DNA of 64,000 nucleotides from an uncultured Chloroflexia bacterium (GTDB lineage: Bacteria; Chloroflexota; Limnocylindria; Limnocylindrales; CSP1-4), in contig CAWJUA010000013.1 in NCBI GenBank assembly GCA_963845925.1, positions 33,507-97,506 on the forward strand, given 5' to 3'. This document shows, in pieces, positions 34,033-39,581 of this stretch. The stretch's first letter is position 1. Each line of letters opens with the position of its first letter. A model generated the notes under the pieces. That model was not told where the DNA came from, searched no databases, and was given only the letters and a program-made list of their open reading frames with translations. Both the position numbers and the translations under genes were made by a program.

Positions 34033-34190
34033 GCCCAACATTCTCTCCCACTGACGCCTATGGCCGGTCTCCCGGTCACGTGAGCGGCAGTCTACGAGGC
34101 CGCGCACGATCGCGCAACCTGCCGGACCCTACCGGACGCCACCGTGTGTCCACCACTGGTCACGTGCGCGGCCTGCTGCCTTCGCCGCGG

Positions 34191-34228
34191 AAACGCATGA
34201 GACCGCCGGTTGCCCGGCGGTCTCATGC
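34191..34228 (-). terminator. Terminator hairpin after the two small peptide genes
   Basis: Perfect 15-bp stem (34195-34209 / 34214-34228), GCAA loop on the minus strand, then GTTT. Confidence 0.8.
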
Positions 34229-34252
34229 CTGTCTGGATCCAGATGGACCCAA

Positions 34253-34354
34253 TTACTTCCAGCGCTGACCGGCCTCGATGACGTAAGCCGAGCTTGCGAG
34301 CGCCGAGAGGACGAGGAGGACCCGGAAGGCCTGAGCCTTGAACATGCGGGTCAT
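34253..34354 (-). CDS. Small peptide 2 (33 aa) MTRMFKAQAFRVLLVLSALASSAYVIEAGQRWK
   Basis: Translated by hand; starts 4 nt after the peptide 1 stop; shares LAS.A....AG.RW. with peptide 1. Confidence 0.75.
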   Translation of the reverse strand: MTRMFKAQAFRVLLVLSALASSAYVIEAGQRWK

Positions 34355-34358
34355 CGCG

Positions 34359-34448
34359 TCAGTCCCAGCGCATCCCAGCGCCGACGGTGAGGGCCATTGA
34401 TGCCAGGAGCATCACTGCCCACGTGAAGCGAGCCAGGTACTTCTTCAC
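34359..34448 (-). CDS. Small peptide 1 (29 aa) MKKYLARFTWAVMLLASMALTVGAGMRWD
   Basis: AAGGAG RBS before GTG 34448; basic N-terminus, hydrophobic core and AG-x-RW tail. Confidence 0.8.
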   Translation of the reverse strand: MKKYLARFTWAVMLLASMALTVGAGMRWD

Positions 34449-34483
34449 GATGTGACTCCTTCGAGTCTGCCTGACGTCGTTCC

Positions 34484-34564
34484 CTCGGCGGCCGGGCGGT
34501 CTTCCGTGACGGGAAGATCCCTGGCTTTGCGTCCCCGTCTCACGACGGGTTTGCCCTGGACGAG
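34484..34564 (-). ncRNA. c-di-GMP-I (GEMM) riboswitch aptamer
   Basis: Minus strand CTCGTCCAGGGCAAACCCGTCGTGAGACGGGGACGCAAAGCCAGGGATCTTCCCGTCACGGAAGACCGCCCGGCCGCCGAG: GGGCAAACC, GNRA loop (GTGA), GGACGCAAAGCC, terminal CCGA and CTCG/CGAG P1. Confidence 0.9.
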
Positions 34565-34668
34565 CTCGCGGCGGAGGAGGTAGTCCTCGTCGTGAACGTT
34601 GCGAGTACGGCTGCCGATCCACTATGGGCCATCGGTACCAGTCGGACACGACTTGCGAGTCAGTGCGT

Positions 34669-35226
34669 TCAGTCATCACCCGTCGGGCCGACCACGCCGG
34701 AGCGCGCGCCGCGACGCATCGTCGTGACGATCACGACCACGACGCCGATCGCCAGGATCGCGTCCCCGACGCTGAAGATGTTGTTGAACGGCAGCCACGT
34801 CGGCAGCGCGAAGATGTCGGTCAGCGGCTCCAGCATCGGATGGGCCAGCACGGCACTGTTTGAGTAGATCACGGGGTCTGCCCTGCCGAGTGCGGCCATC
34901 GCGCCGGGCGATGCCGGCATGAAGCCGCCGTTGGCGAGGATCGCGGCGAGGTTGCAGGCGGCCCCGAGCGCGACCAGCGGGATGCCGGGCACGTCGAGGT
35001 TTCGAAGCACGGCGATCACGACCATGAGCGTGCTCCCGACGTACAGGATCGGCCCGAGGCTACCCACCCGCTCCGCGATCGCGTCCTGGAAGAGGACGAC
35101 CTGCACGAGAAAGCCGGCGAACACGAGCGGCCACCAGCGGAACTTGATCTCGCCGAGGCGGGATGGCCTGCCGCCCAGCAGCAGGCCGATGACCAGGCCG
35201 ATCGCGACGGCGTAGAGGATGAACAT
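34669..35226 (-). CDS. DUF5317-like membrane protein
   Basis: Hydrophobic protein with GG..RL, N..AI.ANGG.MP, L.DIF and FSVGD motifs; GGAG RBS. Confidence 0.8.
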   Translation of the reverse strand: MFILYAVAIGLVIGLLLGGRPSRLGEIKFRWWPLVFAGFLVQVVLFQDAIAERVGSLGPILYVGSTLMVVIAVLRNLDVPGIPLVALGAACNLAAILANGGFMPASPGAMAALGRADPVIYSNSAVLAHPMLEPLTDIFALPTWLPFNNIFSVGDAILAIGVVVVIVTTMRRGARSGVVGPTGDD

Positions 35227-35248: not shown

Positions 35249-37918
35249 TCAGGCGCTGCGAAGCTTGACCCGCCGCCGGGTCAGCGCCGCCGGCTCGACG
35301 GGTGGCTCGGCCCCTGAGGCTGCGGGCAGCGGGCCAAACGTCTTCGCGGTGAATGTTGCACCGTCGACCGGCCTGGCGAACAGGTATCCCTGGCCGAACT
35401 CGCAGCCCATCTCCCGCAGCCGATCGAGCTGCCCGGCATCCTCGACGCCCTCGGCGACGATCCGCAGGCCGAGCGTCCGGCCGAGGGCGACGATCGAGTG
35501 GGCGAACGCCCAATCGTCGCTCCCGCCGTCGGCGGCGCCGATGAACTCGCGGGCGATCTTGAGGATGTCGACCTGGAACCGGCGAAGGTAGCCCAGCGAG
35601 GAGTAGCCGGTTCCGAAGTCGTCGATCGCGATCCGGATGCCGAGCTGTCGCAGGGCCTGGAGGCGCGCGATCGTCGTATGCGTGTCGTGGAACATCGCCG
35701 TCTCGGTGAGCTCGAGCACCAGCGAGGTCGCCGGGAAGCCGGTCTCGTCGAGGATCCGCCCGATGTCGTCGACGAAGTCCGCGTCCTGGAGCTGGGCGGC
35801 CGACAGGTTGATCGTCAGGACGAGCGGCTCCGGCCGAGGCCATTGCCGCTGCCAGGTGGCCACCTCGCGGCACGCCTCCAGCAGCACCCAGCGGCCGAGG
35901 CCGAGGATCGCCCCGCTCTCTTCGGCGAGGCGGATGAACTCGTCTGGACCGACGATGCCGCGGGTGGGGTGCCGCCAGCGGACGAGCGCCTCGACGCCGT
36001 ACAGTCCGCCGGTCGCGAGGCCGATGATCGGCTGGTAGTACACGGCCAGCTCCCCGCGGACGATGCCGCGGGTCAGCTCGGACGAGAGCGCGTGCCGTTC
36101 GATGATCGCCGCATGCATCGTCGGCTCGAAGACGGCGTACTGGCTCTTGCCCAGGGCTTTGGCCCGGTACATCGCCACGTCCGCGTTGCGGAGCAGGTCG
36201 TCGGCCCGCTCGCGTGGGTCACGCGCGGCGGCGAGCCCGATGCTCGCGCTGATCGAGACCTCCTGGCCCTCGATCGGGAGCGGGACCTTCAGTGCCTCGA
36301 GGAGACGCTGGCACACCGACAGGGACCGGCTCAGATCGGGGACGTCGTCCAGCAGGATGGCGAACTCGTCGCCCCCGAGGCGGGCCGCGACGTCGCCGGC
36401 CCGGACGCAGCTCCGGACGCGGTCGGCAACCGCGACGAGCAGATGGTCGCCGGCGACGTGGCCCATGCTGTCGTTCACGACCTTGAAGTCGTCGAGGTCG
36501 ACGAAGAGGACCACCGGCAGCAGGTCCGGCGTGGGCAGCACGAGGCGCGCGTTGACCTGCTCGGTGAAGAGGTTCCGGTTGCCGAGGCCGGTGAGCGGGT
36601 CGTGGTAGGCCTGGTGGCGCAGCTCCTCCTTGAGCCGCGACAGCTCGGCAAGCGACTGTTCCAGCTGGCCGTTCTCGAGCGCGGTGGCGGCCTGGTTGGC
36701 GAGCGTCTCGAGGAGCCGTAGATCCTCGTCGGTAAACGACGTGGCTTCGGTCAAGCGGTTGGCGATCTGGATCGAGCCGATCGTGCCGGCTTCTCCGCGG
36801 AGTGGCGCCATCATCGCCTGACGGACGCCGTCCGCATGCGGGTCGCCGACTGCGGGAACGTGAAAGAACGCGTGCGGCTCCGACTCGACTCGCATGCGGA
36901 TCGGGTCGTCCGGCGCGAGCCTGACCGGCACCATCGTGGTCGGCGGCTCGGCCTCGGCGGTCCGCGTGAGCAACGCGTCGCCCTCGGCCGAGCGTGGGTA
37001 AAGCACGACCTCTGCCCGTTCAGCGCGGAACATGGTTCGGGCGTGTTCAAGCAACGCCACGATCGCCGAATCCAGCTCGGGCGAGTGCTGCAGGATGCGG
37101 CCGGACTGATAGAGGAACTCGAGACGCTGGCCCTTCTCGCGCTCGGAGAGGTAGGCGCGGTAGGCGAGGAAGACCGTGCCGAGCGGAACGACGAGGAGCC
37201 AGAGCAGGCGGGGCTCGACCCACAGGATCGAGACCGCCAGCAGCGCCAGGCTCGTATTCGCGACAGCCACGAGCGTGCCGAACTGGATCATCTCCGGCAG
37301 CTTCTGGAACTGCGGGGCGCCACCGGACAGCGAGATCGCGGTGGCGATGGCAAAGGCGCTGACGACGGTCGCTGCGAGCGTTCCGGCGAACGCCGCGAGC
37401 CAGTCGCCGCTCGTCGGCTGGCCGGCCGGCGAAGCGAGGAGGTGGAAGACCGTCAGGGACACCGCGGCCGAGATCGCGAAATTGCTGAGGTTGAAGGCGA
37501 ACTTCAACGGAGGCTGGCGGAAGTAGATCAGGGCCGAGCCAGACCCGAGCAGCATTGCCAGGAGGTACTGGTCCGGCGACAGCAGGAAGAGACCGAGAAC
37601 GGCCGGGAACTCGCTCAGGGAGAAGGAGTGCTTCTCCCTCCGGAAATGGACGTCGACGACCTTGAGCTCGGCGAGGAAGAAGCCGATCGCGAGGACGGGC
37701 CAGGGAATGTTGAAGGGCTGGGCCGGCGCCGGCAGTCCCCGGAGCTGCGTCAGGTAGAGCAGCAGGGCGCATGTCGCGATCCCCGCGCTGAAGCTCCAGA
37801 CCCGCACCGTCACCGGGATCGCCGCGAGGGCACGCCGAATCGGGACGCCGGCGGCGGCGACCGGCCAGTTGCGCGAACCGGTTGGCTCGACCCGTTGGGT
37901 TTTGACCCCTCGGGACAT
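35249..37918 (-). CDS. Membrane diguanylate cyclase/phosphodiesterase (multi-TM, GAF, GGDEF, EAL)
   Basis: GGAGG RBS and ATG 37918; about 6-7 hydrophobic segments; GAF (FTDEDLRLLETLANQ); DLDDFK, RAGD I-site, GGDEF, EAL, DDFGTGYSS, AEGVE and QGY. Confidence 0.93.
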   Translation of the reverse strand: MSRGVKTQRVEPTGSRNWPVAAAGVPIRRALAAIPVTVRVWSFSAGIATCALLLYLTQLRGLPAPAQPFNIPWPVLAIGFFLAELKVVDVHFRREKHSFSLSEFPAVLGLFLLSPDQYLLAMLLGSGSALIYFRQPPLKFAFNLSNFAISAAVSLTVFHLLASPAGQPTSGDWLAAFAGTLAATVVSAFAIATAISLSGGAPQFQKLPEMIQFGTLVAVANTSLALLAVSILWVEPRLLWLLVVPLGTVFLAYRAYLSEREKGQRLEFLYQSGRILQHSPELDSAIVALLEHARTMFRAERAEVVLYPRSAEGDALLTRTAEAEPPTTMVPVRLAPDDPIRMRVESEPHAFFHVPAVGDPHADGVRQAMMAPLRGEAGTIGSIQIANRLTEATSFTDEDLRLLETLANQAATALENGQLEQSLAELSRLKEELRHQAYHDPLTGLGNRNLFTEQVNARLVLPTPDLLPVVLFVDLDDFKVVNDSMGHVAGDHLLVAVADRVRSCVRAGDVAARLGGDEFAILLDDVPDLSRSLSVCQRLLEALKVPLPIEGQEVSISASIGLAAARDPRERADDLLRNADVAMYRAKALGKSQYAVFEPTMHAAIIERHALSSELTRGIVRGELAVYYQPIIGLATGGLYGVEALVRWRHPTRGIVGPDEFIRLAEESGAILGLGRWVLLEACREVATWQRQWPRPEPLVLTINLSAAQLQDADFVDDIGRILDETGFPATSLVLELTETAMFHDTHTTIARLQALRQLGIRIAIDDFGTGYSSLGYLRRFQVDILKIAREFIGAADGGSDDWAFAHSIVALGRTLGLRIVAEGVEDAGQLDRLREMGCEFGQGYLFARPVDGATFTAKTFGPLPAASGAEPPVEPAALTRRRVKLRSA

Positions 37919-38141
37919 CAGACCTCCAGAGTTTCGTCTCCGTCCGGGCATTCTGTGGCCGCTTCGGCACATCTGGCCGTTGAACGAAGGTACGGGTCGG
38001 GGCATGACGAAGGTCACCGGACCGCATTCCTCCTGACCAATCCGCACACCGGATATCGCGGATGGGGATCGGACGACGTCGGGATGAACGCGCCCCTGTG
38101 CTAGCCTGAAAGGCCCCATTTCACGCAGGTTTCGAGTCGTC

Positions 38142-39581
38142 ATGAGCCAGCCGCGAACGATCGTCGAGAAGATCTGGGACGACCACGTCGTCGTCCAGGA
38201 GCCGGGTGCCCCGGCGGTCCTCGCGGTCGACCTCCACCTCGTCCACGAGGTCACGTCGCCGCAGGCGTTCTCGGGGCTTCGCGCCCGCGGCCTGCGGGTC
38301 CGCCATCCGGACCGGACCGTCGCCACCGCGGATCACTCGACGCCGACCCACTCGCGCTCCCTGCCAATGGCCGACCCGATGGCGGCGGCCCAGGTCGACC
38401 AGCTGACGCGCAACTGCGAGGAGTTCGGCGTCCCGCTCCATGGCCTCGGCTCGCCGAGCCAGGGGATCGTCCACGTCATCGGCCCCCAGCTGGGCCTGAC
38501 CCAGCCCGGGATGACGATCGTCTGCGGCGACTCCCACACCGCGACCCATGGCGCGTTCGGGGCGCTCGCGTTCGGGATCGGGACGAGCGAGGTCGAGATG
38601 GTCCTCGCGACGCAGACGCTGCTCCAGCGCCAGCCGAAGACCTACGAGGTCCGCGTCGACGGCCGTCTCTCGCCCGGCGTCAGCGCGAAGGACATCATCC
38701 TCGCCCTGATCGCCCGGATCGGGATCGGCGGCGGGACCGGCCACGTGTTCGAGTACACCGGCGACGCGATCCGCGCCCTGACGATGGAACAGCGGATGAC
38801 GATCTGCAACATGAGCATCGAGGGCGGCGCGCGGGCCGGCCTGATCGCCCCGGACGACACGACGTTCGACTACGTTCACGGCCGGGCGCATGCCCCGCAG
38901 GGCGCAGCCTGGGATGCCGCCGTGGAGCGCTGGCGTTCGCTCCCCACCGACGAGGGCGCGAGCTACGACCGGTCGATCACGATCGACGCCGCCGCCCTCG
39001 AGCCGATGGTCACGTACGGCACGAACCCGGGCATGGGCATCCCGATCACGTCGCTCGTCCCGTCGCCTGATGCCCAGCCCGATCCGTCCGCCCGCCGGGC
39101 CCTCGAGCGGGCCCTCGAGTACATGGACCTCCTTCCCGGCCAGCCGATCCTCGGCCAGAAGGTCGACGTGGTCTTCGTCGGCTCGTGCACGAACGGCCGG
39201 ATCAGCGACCTGCGGCTCGCGGCGTCGGTGCTGAAGGACCGCAAGGTCGCCGACGGCGTCCGGGTGATGATCGTCCCGGGCTCCGACGAGGTGAAGCGCG
39301 AGGCCGAGCGCGAGGGACTCCACGAGGTCTTCCGGGCGGCCGGCGCCGAGTGGCGCGAGTCGGGCTGCTCGATGTGCATCGCGATGAACGGCGACCAGCT
39401 GGCGCCCGGCCAGTACGCGATCTCGACGTCGAATCGCAACTTCGAGGGCCGCCAGGGCAAGGGCGGCCGGACGTTCCTCGCCTCGCCGCTGACCGCCGCC
39501 GCGTCGGCGATCGCGGGCGTCGTCGCCGACCCGCGCAGGCTCGCCGGGATCGAGGCGATCGCCCCGGTCGGTGGGCGGTAG
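38142..39581 (+). CDS. leuC: 3-isopropylmalate dehydratase large subunit
   Basis: [24 protein letters not shown] and [12 protein letters not shown]. Confidence 0.97.

What the first reader, a model, noticed from the sequence alone, without database searches (positions are those of the whole stretch)
34253..34448. Two tiny tandem ORFs share the motif LAS-x-A-x4-AG-x-RW-x-stop
MKKYLARFTWAVMLLASMALTVGAGMRWD and MTRMFKAQAFRVLLVLSALASSAYVIEAGQRWK are diverged yet align without gaps over the last 15 residues, which suggests selection at the protein level. Each resembles a signal peptide carrying only a 4-5 residue cargo (GMRWD, GQRWK) and has no Cys. The final residues carry opposite charges, which could mean agonist/antagonist or two specificities (speculative). 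Peptide 2 is absent from the ORF track, and peptide 1 appears only as the tail of a longer ORF.
Basis: partly seen in the sequence, partly recalled or inferred. Interest (0 to 1): 0.85.

Follow-up and report, generated by a model that had tools for sequence, protein, structure and literature searches.

The report
Riboswitch-controlled twin micro-protein genes
The two tiny reading frames are real, conserved genes for 29- and 33-residue membrane peptides that form the only cargo of a c-di-GMP-sensing RNA switch, next to an uncharacterised membrane protein (DUF5317) and a c-di-GMP enzyme in an uncultured soil Chloroflexota bacterium.

Summary
Observation confirmed. On the minus strand, a GTG-started 29-codon ORF (34448-34359) and an ATG-started 33-codon ORF (34354-34253) are gapless paralogues sharing K-x4-R, a small-residue helix and an A-G-x-R-W-x tail. 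Both ORFs are kept in 23 of 24 genus relatives, with mostly third-position and synonymous change. The family has 216 clusters in 1.84 billion representatives. Soil RNA libraries hold the unit. It lies downstream of DUF5317 and a GAF-GGDEF-EAL gene across several families of the class (Limnocylindria-type MAGs). 57 of 80 DUF5317 loci carry such a peptide.

Best reading: c-di-GMP-gated micro-proteins that work with DUF5317. The closest published parallel is the unrelated C. difficile CD1980.2 family (2026). The "signal peptide plus 4-residue cargo" idea is neither shown nor excluded. DUF5317 shows only non-significant likeness to signal peptidase II. The opposite-charge idea fails because the last residue varies freely. 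In relatives the second ORF shrinks to as few as 9 codons yet keeps [AS]-G-[HQ]-R-W, which remains unexplained. Eight earlier reports of this scan describe the same module in other genomes.

The parts
34574..34588 (-). Small hairpin (5-bp stem, 5-nt loop) about 10 nt upstream of the aptamer. Role unknown.
   Evidence: Read. A 4-7 bp hairpin at this position, with different stem sequences, appears in most of the 28 leaders folded singly. Mean z is only -1.2, and 11 of 28 fall below -1.5.
34483..34564 (-). c-di-GMP-I-type riboswitch aptamer
   Evidence: RF03167 scores 67.2 bits (cut-off 59), E 1e-13. RF01051 scores 61.6 bits (cut-off 35) at the same place. 7 of 20 predicted pairs show compensatory changes in 28 leaders.
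34456..34462 (-). Shine-Dalgarno GAAGGAG of peptide 1. It lies partly inside a local 5-bp hairpin.
   Evidence: MFE of the window leader. An AAGGAG-like box precedes the first ORF in the relatives listed.
34359..34448 (-). Micro-protein gene 1 (29 aa, GTG start): K-x4-R, hydrophobic helix, G-A-G-x-R-W-x
   Evidence: The start is GTG in 63 of 70 distinct units.
34253..34354 (-). Micro-protein gene 2 (33 aa, ATG start 4 nt after the stop of gene 1): paralogue with an L-E-A-G-Q-R-W-x tail
   Evidence: The exact sequence is in public collections, in a cluster of 17 members all unnamed or 'hypothetical'.
34195..34228 (-). Terminator-like hairpin (15-bp stem, 4-nt loop) followed by GUUUCC. It ends the unit.
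   Evidence: MFE -46.1 kcal/mol, z -7.6, and 0 of 200 shuffles fold as well. The inverted repeat recurs in relatives. It is not a consensus T-tail terminator.
34669..35226 (-). DUF5317 membrane protein gene, the conserved upstream neighbour
   Evidence: PF17248 at 91.2 bits, cut-off 25. Synteny. The 20 aligned relatives have invariant D137 and D155.
35249..38326 (-). Membrane GAF-GGDEF-EAL protein gene (the ORF as listed; the true start lies further in)
   Evidence: Pfam EAL 250.8, GGDEF 145.7 and GAF_3 41.6 bits. It is conserved upstream of DUF5317 in relatives.

Best explanation
The region is a self-contained, riboswitch-gated micro-operon: small hairpin, c-di-GMP-I-type aptamer, Shine-Dalgarno, a 29-codon gene, a 33-codon gene 4 nt later, and a strong terminal hairpin.

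Shown:
- Both genes are real, paralogous and under amino-acid-level selection.
- They are the aptamer's only cargo.
- The unit sits behind DUF5317 and a GAF-GGDEF-EAL gene across several families of the class.
- The sequence is present in soil RNA libraries.

Inferred:
- The level of c-di-GMP sets, through the aptamer, how much of the bicistronic RNA is translated. Only about 20 nt separate the aptamer from the Shine-Dalgarno, so control is most likely at translation initiation or RNA stability. Whether the ligand switches expression on or off is not resolved.
- Gene 1 is read from a weak GTG behind a strong Shine-Dalgarno. Gene 2 is read by coupling. Here the gap is 4 nt; in relatives the stop and start overlap.
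- Both peptides insert as single-pass helices with the basic N-terminus inside. They present a face of small residues (A/S/G/T) and the G-A-G-x-R-W / E-A-G-x-R-W tail at the far membrane edge.
- There they engage the DUF5317 protein, as partners or as substrates. This forms an output or feedback arm of the c-di-GMP enzyme encoded next door.
For: Anatomy.

Riboswitch:
- It passes both clan models: 67.2 bits against a cut-off of 59, and 61.6 against 35.
- 7 of 20 predicted pairs covary.

Conservation:
- 23 of 24 same-genus genomes match the 411-nt unit; 0 of 16 genomes of the small-genome sister family do.
- The ORFs are preserved.
- The codon-position pattern and synonymous codons at conserved residues point to protein-level selection.
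- 216 clusters reach E <= 0.001 and 12 reach E <= 1e-10 among 1.84 billion representatives.

Cargo link: of 31 riboswitch loci examined, 7 from other genera or families are followed at 25-36 nt by a first-type peptide. The other 24 carry other small hydrophobic ORFs (5), secreted-looking proteins, or nothing clear.

DUF5317 link:
- The order enzyme, DUF5317, riboswitch, peptides is seen in the genus and in L047, L054, L057, L060, L061 and L062.
- L008 has two DUF5317 genes, each followed by its own riboswitch-peptide unit.
- 57 of 80 DUF5317 loci of public Limnocylindrales-type MAGs carry a membrane-type motif peptide on the same strand: 54 downstream, 3 upstream behind the riboswitch.
- The sister family lacks all parts in the genomes searched: riboswitch 0 of 6, DUF5317 0 of 3.

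Same logic elsewhere in this genome: a c-di-GMP-II riboswitch (57.1 bits, cut-off 53.5) heads small hydrophobic ORFs, an HD_5 protein and a DUF5317-MFS fusion.

RNA: contigs from RNA libraries of 3 independent soil or rhizosphere data sets cover 34260-34625. Three of them carry no mismatch: 34260-34355, 34326-34497 and 34408-34540.

Complex prediction, DUF5317 with peptide 2: weak support.
- Score 0.34 (runs 0.34, 0.01, 0.43); best of 3 controls 0.00.
- The mark was reached by 58 of 80 solved complexes and 2 of 110 mismatched pairs. At 0.60 or under it was reached by only 7 of those 80, and by both mismatches.
- The runs agree in at least 16% of contacts, and the partner's pLDDT is at least 40.
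- My own alignments were used, so the counts hold only roughly.

Precedent: small membrane-associated proteins behind class I c-di-GMP riboswitches act as c-di-GMP effectors in C. difficile (PMC13724677; abstract and sections 7 and 14 read).
Against: - No direct evidence of translation exists (no Ribo-seq or peptide data).
- RNA-library contigs cannot show strand, ends or level, and such libraries can hold DNA.
- The ligand was not tested. Rfam's best model is the 'GGC' variant, and I recall, without having been able to read the paper, that its authors thought this variant might sense another signal. Against that worry, the canonical model also passes, and a 94%-identical orthologue is called canonical.
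- The on/off direction is unresolved. My Shine-Dalgarno accessibility calculation gave 0.42 against 0.43 and its constraint mapping was flawed.
- The riboswitch is not obligatory: 8 of 10 peptide-positive loci that failed my aptamer regex also have no Rfam match.
- 23 of 80 DUF5317 loci show no motif peptide.
- The membrane-partner picture does not explain why the second ORF can lose its helix, or shrink to 9 codons, while keeping [AS]-G-[HQ]-R-W.
- The complex score is weak, and one of the three runs gave 0.01.
Confidence: 0.6

Rival explanations
1. Peptide-signal precursors. The peptides are signal-peptide-like substrates, and DUF5317 is an aspartyl intramembrane peptidase related to signal peptidase II. 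It would cut after the A-G and release or expose a 3-5 residue x-R-W-x peptide. That peptide would act as a c-di-GMP-gated signal, sensed for example by the membrane GAF-GGDEF-EAL enzyme.
For: - The peptides have a basic N-region and a hydrophobic core, with A-G at -2/-1 as in a lipobox.
- Only the tail is kept in the shrunken second ORFs, with all four Gly codons, six Ala/Ser codons and both His codons in use.
- DUF5317 has two invariant Asp, D137 and D155, the latter in S-x-G-D.
- hhalign places these two Asp on the two Asp of the G-N-x-x-D-R and F-N-x-A-D boxes of this lineage's LspA. That these are LspA's catalytic residues is recalled, not tested here.
- In the all-against-all fold search, LspA (6ryp_A) appears at rank 36 with Z 5.4, rmsd 3.7 and 96 aligned residues. 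Its 20% identity is the highest in the list. One search confirms that 6ryo/6ryp are lipoprotein signal peptidase.
- In other Chloroflexota classes, 10 of 24 DUF5317 loci have a small Shine-Dalgarno-preceded membrane ORF just upstream, ending in G-A-P/G-A-G plus a short tail.
Against: - None of the likeness to LspA is significant. hhalign gives E 0.15 and probability 0.4%.
- Z 5.4 lies inside the noise for helical models, where the best unrelated hit scores 6.8.
- Foldseek found nothing at E <= 0.001.
- Pfam gives no Peptidase_A8 hit at E <= 10.
- There is no Cys at +1, and peptide 2 has Glu at -3.
- Hydrophilic 9-20-residue second peptides could not be intramembrane substrates.
- The helices have conserved small-residue positions, which is more than a disposable signal peptide needs.
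Confidence: 0.2
2. Membrane-perturbing peptides (type-I-toxin-like or holin-like). Their c-di-GMP-controlled production would lower membrane potential or growth, with no specific protein partner.
For: The size, basic N-terminus, single hydrophobic helix and tight control of translation (GTG start, riboswitch) resemble small membrane toxins.
Against: - The peptides are in conserved synteny with DUF5317.
- Specific residues are conserved, including the tail.
- Hydrophilic second peptides exist.
- No antisense RNA was sought or seen.
- A third copy stands alone without a riboswitch.
Confidence: 0.07
3. Cis-acting leader or arrest peptides. The A-G-x-R-W tail would stall the ribosome near the stop codon and so control RNA fate or a downstream gene such as the acetolactate-synthase-like gene.
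For: - The motif lies next to the stop codon in the window and in many relatives.
- The Arg codon of the second ORF is CGC in 59 of 61 distinct sequences.
- A TPP-enzyme gene follows about 430 nt downstream.
Against: - The motif is followed by 6-14 further residues in several members.
- A -46 kcal/mol hairpin ends the unit.
- The TPP-enzyme neighbour is missing within 1.5 kb in 5 of 5 loci of family f4: L047, L054, L057, L060 and L061.
- The N-terminal K and R and the helix are conserved too.
Confidence: 0.04
4. Not translated. The conserved stretch would be part of a longer structured RNA behind the aptamer.
For: No direct proof of translation exists.
Against: - Variation is dominated by the third codon position.
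- Conserved residues use synonymous codons.
- The frame, start and stop positions are conserved.
- A Shine-Dalgarno sits at the right distance.
Confidence: 0.03

Closest known systems
CD1980.2 family of Clostridioides difficile (Nat Commun 2026, PMC13724677; abstract and sections 7 and 14 read)
   Same: - Multi-copy genes for small membrane-associated proteins sit directly behind class I c-di-GMP riboswitches.
- Some paralogues lack a riboswitch.
- The genes were missed by annotation.
- The proteins act as effectors of c-di-GMP.
   Different: - The proteins are 58 aa, against 29-33 aa here.
- The paper reports no homologues outside C. difficile.
- Control there is by premature transcription termination. 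Here there is no room for a terminator between aptamer and Shine-Dalgarno.
- That family has no tandem coupled pair, no A-G-x-R-W tail and no DUF5317 partner.
- Its role is sporulation, which is not known in this lineage.
c-di-GMP-I (GEMM-I) riboswitches, Rfam RF01051 and the variant RF03167, clan CL00126
   Same: The aptamer passes both gathering scores, its stems covary, and it lies 5' of its cargo beside c-di-GMP turnover genes.
   Different: The cargo is two micro-ORFs rather than an ordinary gene. The variant label is unstable between close orthologues. The ligand was not tested.
Small hydrophobic pheromone precursors of Gram-positive bacteria (SHP/ComS type, matured by a membrane protease). 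Recalled from general knowledge, not from a call.
   Same: Unannotated 17-35-residue peptides with a basic N-terminus and a hydrophobic body, in which the function lies in the C-terminal few residues.
   Different: No RRNPP-type receptor lies nearby, the partner is DUF5317, control is by a riboswitch, and neither processing nor export has been shown.
Lipoprotein signal peptides and signal peptidase II (LspA, Pfam PF01252)
   Same: - The peptides have an N-in hydrophobic segment ending in A-G.
- DUF5317 has two invariant Asp that hhalign places on the two conserved Asp boxes of LspA.
   Different: - There is no Cys at +1.
- No likeness between DUF5317 and LspA is significant (E 0.15; Z 5.4).
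- The genome has its own ordinary LspA.

Membership tests
c-di-GMP-I riboswitch (RF01051 / RF03167) | Covariance-model score at or above the curated gathering score | tested here: met
   RF03167 scores 67.2 against 59. RF01051 scores 61.6 against 35.
c-di-GMP-I riboswitch (RF01051 / RF03167) | Stems supported by compensatory changes among relatives | tested here: met
   7 of 20 predicted pairs have both-side changes in 28 leaders.
c-di-GMP-I riboswitch (RF01051 / RF03167) | Selective binding of c-di-GMP | not testable with these tools
   Only context speaks for it: a GGDEF-EAL neighbour, and a class II c-di-GMP riboswitch heading a like module in the same genome.
c-di-GMP-I-GGC variant (RF03167) as distinct from the canonical class | Variant-specific nucleotides at ligand-contacting positions | tested here: inconclusive
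   The variant model exceeds the canonical one by only 5.6 bits. The 94%-identical orthologue L063 is called canonical. The defining paper was not held.
CD1980.2-type riboswitch-associated small proteins | Small protein gene directly behind a class I c-di-GMP riboswitch | tested here: met
   The start codon lies 35 nt after the aptamer.
CD1980.2-type riboswitch-associated small proteins | Sequence homology to CD1980.2 | not tested
The paper states that there are no non-C. difficile homologues. The lengths are 58 aa against 29-33 aa.
CD1980.2-type riboswitch-associated small proteins | Control by premature transcription termination | tested here: not met
   Only about 20 nt lie between the aptamer end (34483) and the Shine-Dalgarno (34462), and no terminator-like site was found.
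Sec signal peptide cut by signal peptidase I | Small neutral residues at -3 and -1, and a mature domain | tested here: not met
   Peptide 1 (G-A-G) fits. Peptide 2 has Glu at -3. The 'mature' part would be 4 residues. No SignalP was available.
Lipoprotein signal peptide (lipobox) | Invariant Cys at +1 after L-[AS]-[GA] | tested here: not met
   Neither peptide has a Cys, nor does any aligned member at that position.
DUF5317 (PF17248), for the neighbouring gene | Pfam score above the gathering score | tested here: met
   91.2 bits against 25.
Peptidase A8 / LspA, for the DUF5317 neighbour | Sequence or profile homology to PF01252 | tested here: inconclusive
   No Pfam hit at E <= 10. hhalign gives E 0.15 and probability 0.4%, though the two invariant Asp fall on the two conserved Asp boxes.
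Peptidase A8 / LspA, for the DUF5317 neighbour | Shared fold | tested here: inconclusive
   VIA-align gives Z 5.4, rmsd 3.7, 96 aligned residues and 20% identity to 6ryp_A at rank 36. The best unrelated hit has Z 6.8. Foldseek found none.
RiPP precursor peptide | A maturation enzyme gene in the conserved neighbourhood | tested here: not met
   The conserved neighbours are DUF5317 and GAF-GGDEF-EAL, and in one family a TPP enzyme. No known RiPP enzyme family was seen.
Ribosome-arrest or leader peptide | Motif at a fixed distance from the stop codon, and a regulated gene downstream | tested here: not met
   6-14 residues follow R-W in several members. A strong hairpin ends the unit. The downstream gene is not conserved across families.
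Type I toxin | Overlapping antisense RNA antitoxin | not tested
   No strand-resolved RNA data: only contigs were available.

The most novel reading that the evidence does not exclude
DUF5317 is a previously unrecognised intramembrane aspartyl peptidase, distantly akin to signal peptidase II. The twin micro-proteins are its dedicated substrates. A c-di-GMP riboswitch would thus gate the production of 3-5 residue x-R-W-x peptides, the smallest ribosomally encoded signals. These would report a cell's c-di-GMP state to the membrane GAF-GGDEF-EAL enzyme of the same or of neighbouring cells. The shrunken, soluble second peptides that keep only A-G-H-R-W would be decoys or competitors for the same site.
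Probability: 0.15. Interest if true: 0.9.

Novelty: new variant of a known kind. Interest (0 to 1): 0.6.

Why it matters
c-di-GMP riboswitches are known to control ordinary genes. A first family of riboswitch-controlled small proteins was described only in 2026, in C. difficile. This window shows an unrelated and much smaller family in uncultured soil Chloroflexota.

Three features stand out:
- The genes come as a translationally coupled pair.
- The peptides share a conserved five-residue tail.
- They are tied to a membrane protein family (DUF5317) on which the searched library holds no paper.

This gives DUF5317 its first functional lead. It suggests that micro-proteins are a recurrent output of this second messenger. 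It also shows that riboswitch gene associations can be misjudged when the true cargo is too short to be annotated.

For this scan the finding is not new. Eight earlier reports describe the same module in other genomes.

Tried and rejected
- **Word-index protein search.** The HMMER scan of representatives was used instead.
- **Defining paper.** The paper that defined the GGC variant is not held. The three papers naming the variant give no gene associations: one search is a listing and one passage.
- **Pfam and NCBIfam.** No family matches either peptide at E <= 10.
- **Consensus scan.** No sigma-70-like promoter and no T-tail terminator in 34100-34800.
- **On/off direction.** Shine-Dalgarno accessibility with and without an enforced aptamer gave 0.42 against 0.43. 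My column mapping of the constraint was faulty, so nothing is concluded.
- **RNA libraries.** No contig lay over 34640-34898 (DUF5317) or 34196-34232 (the hairpin) in the four runs laid. No cover is not a finding.
- **DUF5317 fold.** Foldseek against the PDB found nothing at E <= 0.001. In VIA-align the best Z was 6.8, to a designed helical barrel.
- **DUF5317 profile against PDB sequences.** The only hit was CrcB at E 0.22.
- **Deeper DUF5317 profile.** The large search returned only relatives of 58-99% identity among the 120 listed. The LspA comparison therefore could not be sharpened.
- **ilvB leader idea.** Rejected: the unit has its own hairpin, and the TPP-enzyme neighbour is absent in family f4.
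- **RiPP idea.** Rejected for lack of a maturation enzyme nearby.
- **Motif beyond the class.** Only 1 of 26 distant DUF5317 loci (L172) carries an R/K-W-type peptide within 1.5 kb.

Full report
**1.

On the minus strand, an ATG-started 33-codon ORF (34354-34253) follows, after 4 nt, a 29-codon ORF. That first ORF begins at GTG 34448, seven nt behind GAAGGAG, and ends at 34359. The ORF list shows the first one only as the tail of a 106-codon frame. That extension is not conserved.

The two peptides share 8 of their last 15 residues. With 26 relatives they align without gaps over all 29 positions. Invariant are a Lys, an Arg, two Ala and the Arg-Trp. They are therefore paralogues, not merely bearers of a shared motif.

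In the whole 3.98-Mb assembly, only 6 of 84,263 stop-delimited frames end in AG.RW. Three of those six belong to this family.

**2.

Directly upstream lies a c-di-GMP-I-type riboswitch aptamer (34564-34483). Rfam's variant model RF03167 gives 67.2 bits against a cut-off of 59. The canonical model RF01051 gives 61.6 bits against 35 at the same place. A 94%-identical orthologue is called canonical. I therefore treat the 'GGC' label as unstable and the element as a class I c-di-GMP aptamer whose ligand is untested.

Its stems covary: 7 of 20 predicted pairs show compensatory changes in 28 leaders. Behind the second ORF comes a 15-bp hairpin (34228-34195) of -46.1 kcal/mol, z -7.6. The whole unit is thus a roughly 400-nt block whose only cargo is the two micro-ORFs.

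**3. The ORFs are genes**

- The unit is found in 23 of 24 genomes of the genus and in 0 of 16 genomes of a small-genome sister family.
- Both frames, their starts and their stops are kept.
- Variable columns by codon position are 16/11/22 for peptide 1 and 13/5/22 for peptide 2. Conserved Ala, Gly and Arg use several codons, and TGA, TAA and TAG interchange at the stop.
- A profile of 28 members finds 216 clusters at E <= 0.001 (12 at E <= 1e-10) among 1.84 billion representatives. Most matches sit at the very C-terminus of over-long gene calls or are 29-residue proteins.
- The exact 33-residue sequence is in public collections, in a cluster of 17 members that are all unnamed or 'hypothetical protein'. 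Its nearest ESM Atlas clusters are also unnamed.
- Contigs from RNA libraries of three independent soil or rhizosphere data sets cover 34260-34625, and three of them have no mismatch. X16 and X17 look like one data set filed twice and are counted once. Contigs show presence in an RNA library, not strand, ends or level.

**4. Context**

The organism is an uncultured Chloroflexota bacterium of the Limnocylindrales type, judged from the record titles of the 80 nearest DUF5317 loci.

Upstream on the same strand lie a DUF5317 gene (PF17248, 91.2 bits) and a membrane GAF-GGDEF-EAL gene. Downstream lies a TPP enzyme of the acetolactate-synthase type.

The order enzyme, DUF5317, riboswitch, peptides recurs in the genus and in five loci of another family (f4: L047, L054, L057, L060, L061), plus L062 of another genus of the window's own family. 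The TPP enzyme follows only in the window's own family. One relative has two DUF5317 genes, each with its own riboswitch-peptide unit.

Counts among the 80 public DUF5317 loci:
- 57 carry a membrane-type motif peptide on the same strand: 54 within 1 kb downstream, and 3 upstream where the riboswitch precedes peptides and DUF5317 together.
- 23 carry none. Two of these have almost no downstream flank.
- The riboswitch is not obligatory. My loose regex found an aptamer in 45 of 78 loci. Of the 10 peptide-positive loci that failed the regex, 8 also have no Rfam match.

Conversely, riboswitches of this type have other cargo too. Of 31 loci examined, 7 are followed by a first-type peptide, 5 by other 31-35-residue hydrophobic ORFs, 12 by larger secreted-looking proteins, and 7 by nothing clear.

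The sister family lacks riboswitch (0 of 6), DUF5317 (0 of 3) and the unit (0 of 16) in the genomes searched.

**5. The pair**

In 70 distinct units, the first gene starts with GTG in 63, and 62 have a second ORF with the tail motif. Stop and start are 1-13 nt apart or overlap, which suggests coupling.

The first peptide is always a membrane-type peptide. The second is far more plastic. It ranges from a 33-37-residue helix peptide, as in this window, to hydrophilic peptides of about 20 residues and even a 9-codon ORF. Only L-V-x-x-[AS]-G-[HQ]-R-W or just [AS]-G-[HQ]-R-W is kept.

In 27 such hydrophilic sequences, the Ala/Ser, Gly and His positions use 6, 4 and 2 codons respectively. The tail is therefore selected as protein. 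Curiously, its Arg is CGC in 59 of 61 second ORFs.

Some first peptides carry 6-14 residues after R-W, and R can be K. The motif is thus a helix-end feature, not a fixed 'last four residues'.

**6. Mechanism**

The best-supported reading is a c-di-GMP-gated pair of micro-proteins that act together with DUF5317, as an output or feedback arm of the adjacent enzyme.

- The helices carry conserved small residues at helix-packing spacing.
- A complex prediction of DUF5317 with peptide 2 gave weak support: score 0.34, best control 0.00. That mark was reached by 58 of 80 solved and 2 of 110 mismatched pairs. At 0.60 or under it was reached by only 7 of the 80 and by both mismatches. The runs agree in at least 16% of contacts, the partner's pLDDT is at least 40, and my own alignments were used.
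- Control is probably at translation or RNA stability, because only about 20 nt separate the aptamer from the Shine-Dalgarno.
- The direction of control is unresolved.

**7. The peptidase idea**

DUF5317 has invariant D137 and D155, the latter in S-x-G-D. Its AlphaFold model is confident, with pLDDT 82 and pTM 0.77.

- Foldseek finds no solved relative.
- In the all-against-all fold search, signal peptidase II (6ryp_A) appears at rank 36 with Z 5.4, 96 aligned residues and the list's highest identity of 20%.
- hhalign against this lineage's own LspA places the two Asp on LspA's two conserved Asp boxes, but with E 0.15 and probability 0.4%.

This is a lead, not a result. It fits the lipobox-like A-G before the tail. 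It does not fit the missing Cys, the Glu at -3 of peptide 2, or the soluble second peptides.

In other Chloroflexota classes, 10 of 24 DUF5317 loci have a small membrane ORF just upstream that ends in G-A-P or G-A-G plus a short tail. The R-W type appears in only 1 of 26.

**8. Comparison with what is known**

The only published parallel found is the CD1980.2 family of C. difficile: 58-residue membrane-associated proteins behind class I c-di-GMP riboswitches, controlled by termination, that promote sporulation and have no homologues elsewhere (PMC13724677).

No paper in the library mentions DUF5317. A search for c-di-GMP riboswitch together with small-ORF terms listed nothing else relevant among the 25 shown.

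Eight earlier reports of this scan describe the same module in other Chloroflexota genomes. I re-derived their core claims here from this window.

**9. Reliance on unpublished genomes**

One row each of alignments A1 and A2 (L019) comes from the unpublished genome G010. G010, G102 and G344 also enter the tallies. No conclusion depends on them.

Noticed in passing
L187 (G000:C19:92500-99500), minus strand: riboswitch 5497-5416; small ORFs 5298-5218 and 5144-5025; 163-aa membrane ORF 5115-4624; HD_5 protein 4485-3727; DUF5317-MFS fusion 3624-1531: The same genome holds a second module headed by a class II c-di-GMP riboswitch (RF01786, 57.1 bits, cut-off 53.5). It is followed by small hydrophobic ORFs, an HD-GYP-type protein and a 697-aa DUF5317-MFS fusion. 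So two unrelated c-di-GMP aptamer classes each head a micro-ORF plus DUF5317 module in this genome. The conservation of these small ORFs was not checked.
   Followed up: partly
L188 (G000:C13:124300-125800); the ORF ends at G000:C13:125126, plus strand, outside the window: A third paralogue of peptide 2 (32 aa, tail A-G-R-R-W-C) has its own Shine-Dalgarno. It has no riboswitch at E <= 0.01 and no DUF5317 gene nearby.
   Followed up: partly
window 34574-34588 (-), and the same position in 28 relatives (A4): A small hairpin just upstream of the aptamer recurs with different stem sequences. Its 3' arm is often CCUCC-like. It might end the DUF5317 transcript, cap the 5' end, or form part of the expression platform.
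   Followed up: partly
Second ORFs in loci L005-L142: The Arg codon of the [AS]-G-x-R-W tail is CGC in 59 of 61 distinct second ORFs. In the first ORF, CGC, CGG and CGT all occur. This hints at an extra constraint at the RNA or decoding level.
   Followed up: no
P0016, P0062, P0075, P0079, P0113 (63-65 aa); P0001, P0022 (fusions): In some metagenomic relatives the stop of gene 1 reads as Trp (TGA to TGG), and the frame runs on for about 35 residues across gene 2. Two entries fuse a first-type and a second-type peptide in one frame. Whether these are natural variants or assembly errors was not resolved.
   Followed up: no
L034, L040, L042, L050, L051 (riboswitch loci of relatives); G000:C13:23167-23255 and G000:C11:2208-2282 (own genome): Other copies of the same riboswitch type precede different 31-35-residue hydrophobic ORFs without the R-W tail, or 120-230-residue secreted-looking proteins without a Pfam family. 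The c-di-GMP riboswitch regulon of this class is largely unannotated.
   Followed up: partly
L158, L160, L162, L163, L165, L166, L168, L175, L179, L180 (other Chloroflexota classes): A 30-48-residue membrane ORF with a Shine-Dalgarno lies about 230 nt upstream of DUF5317 and ends in G-A-P or G-A-G plus a short tail. This suggests that the pairing of DUF5317 with a small peptide is older than the R-W motif and than the riboswitch link.
   Followed up: partly
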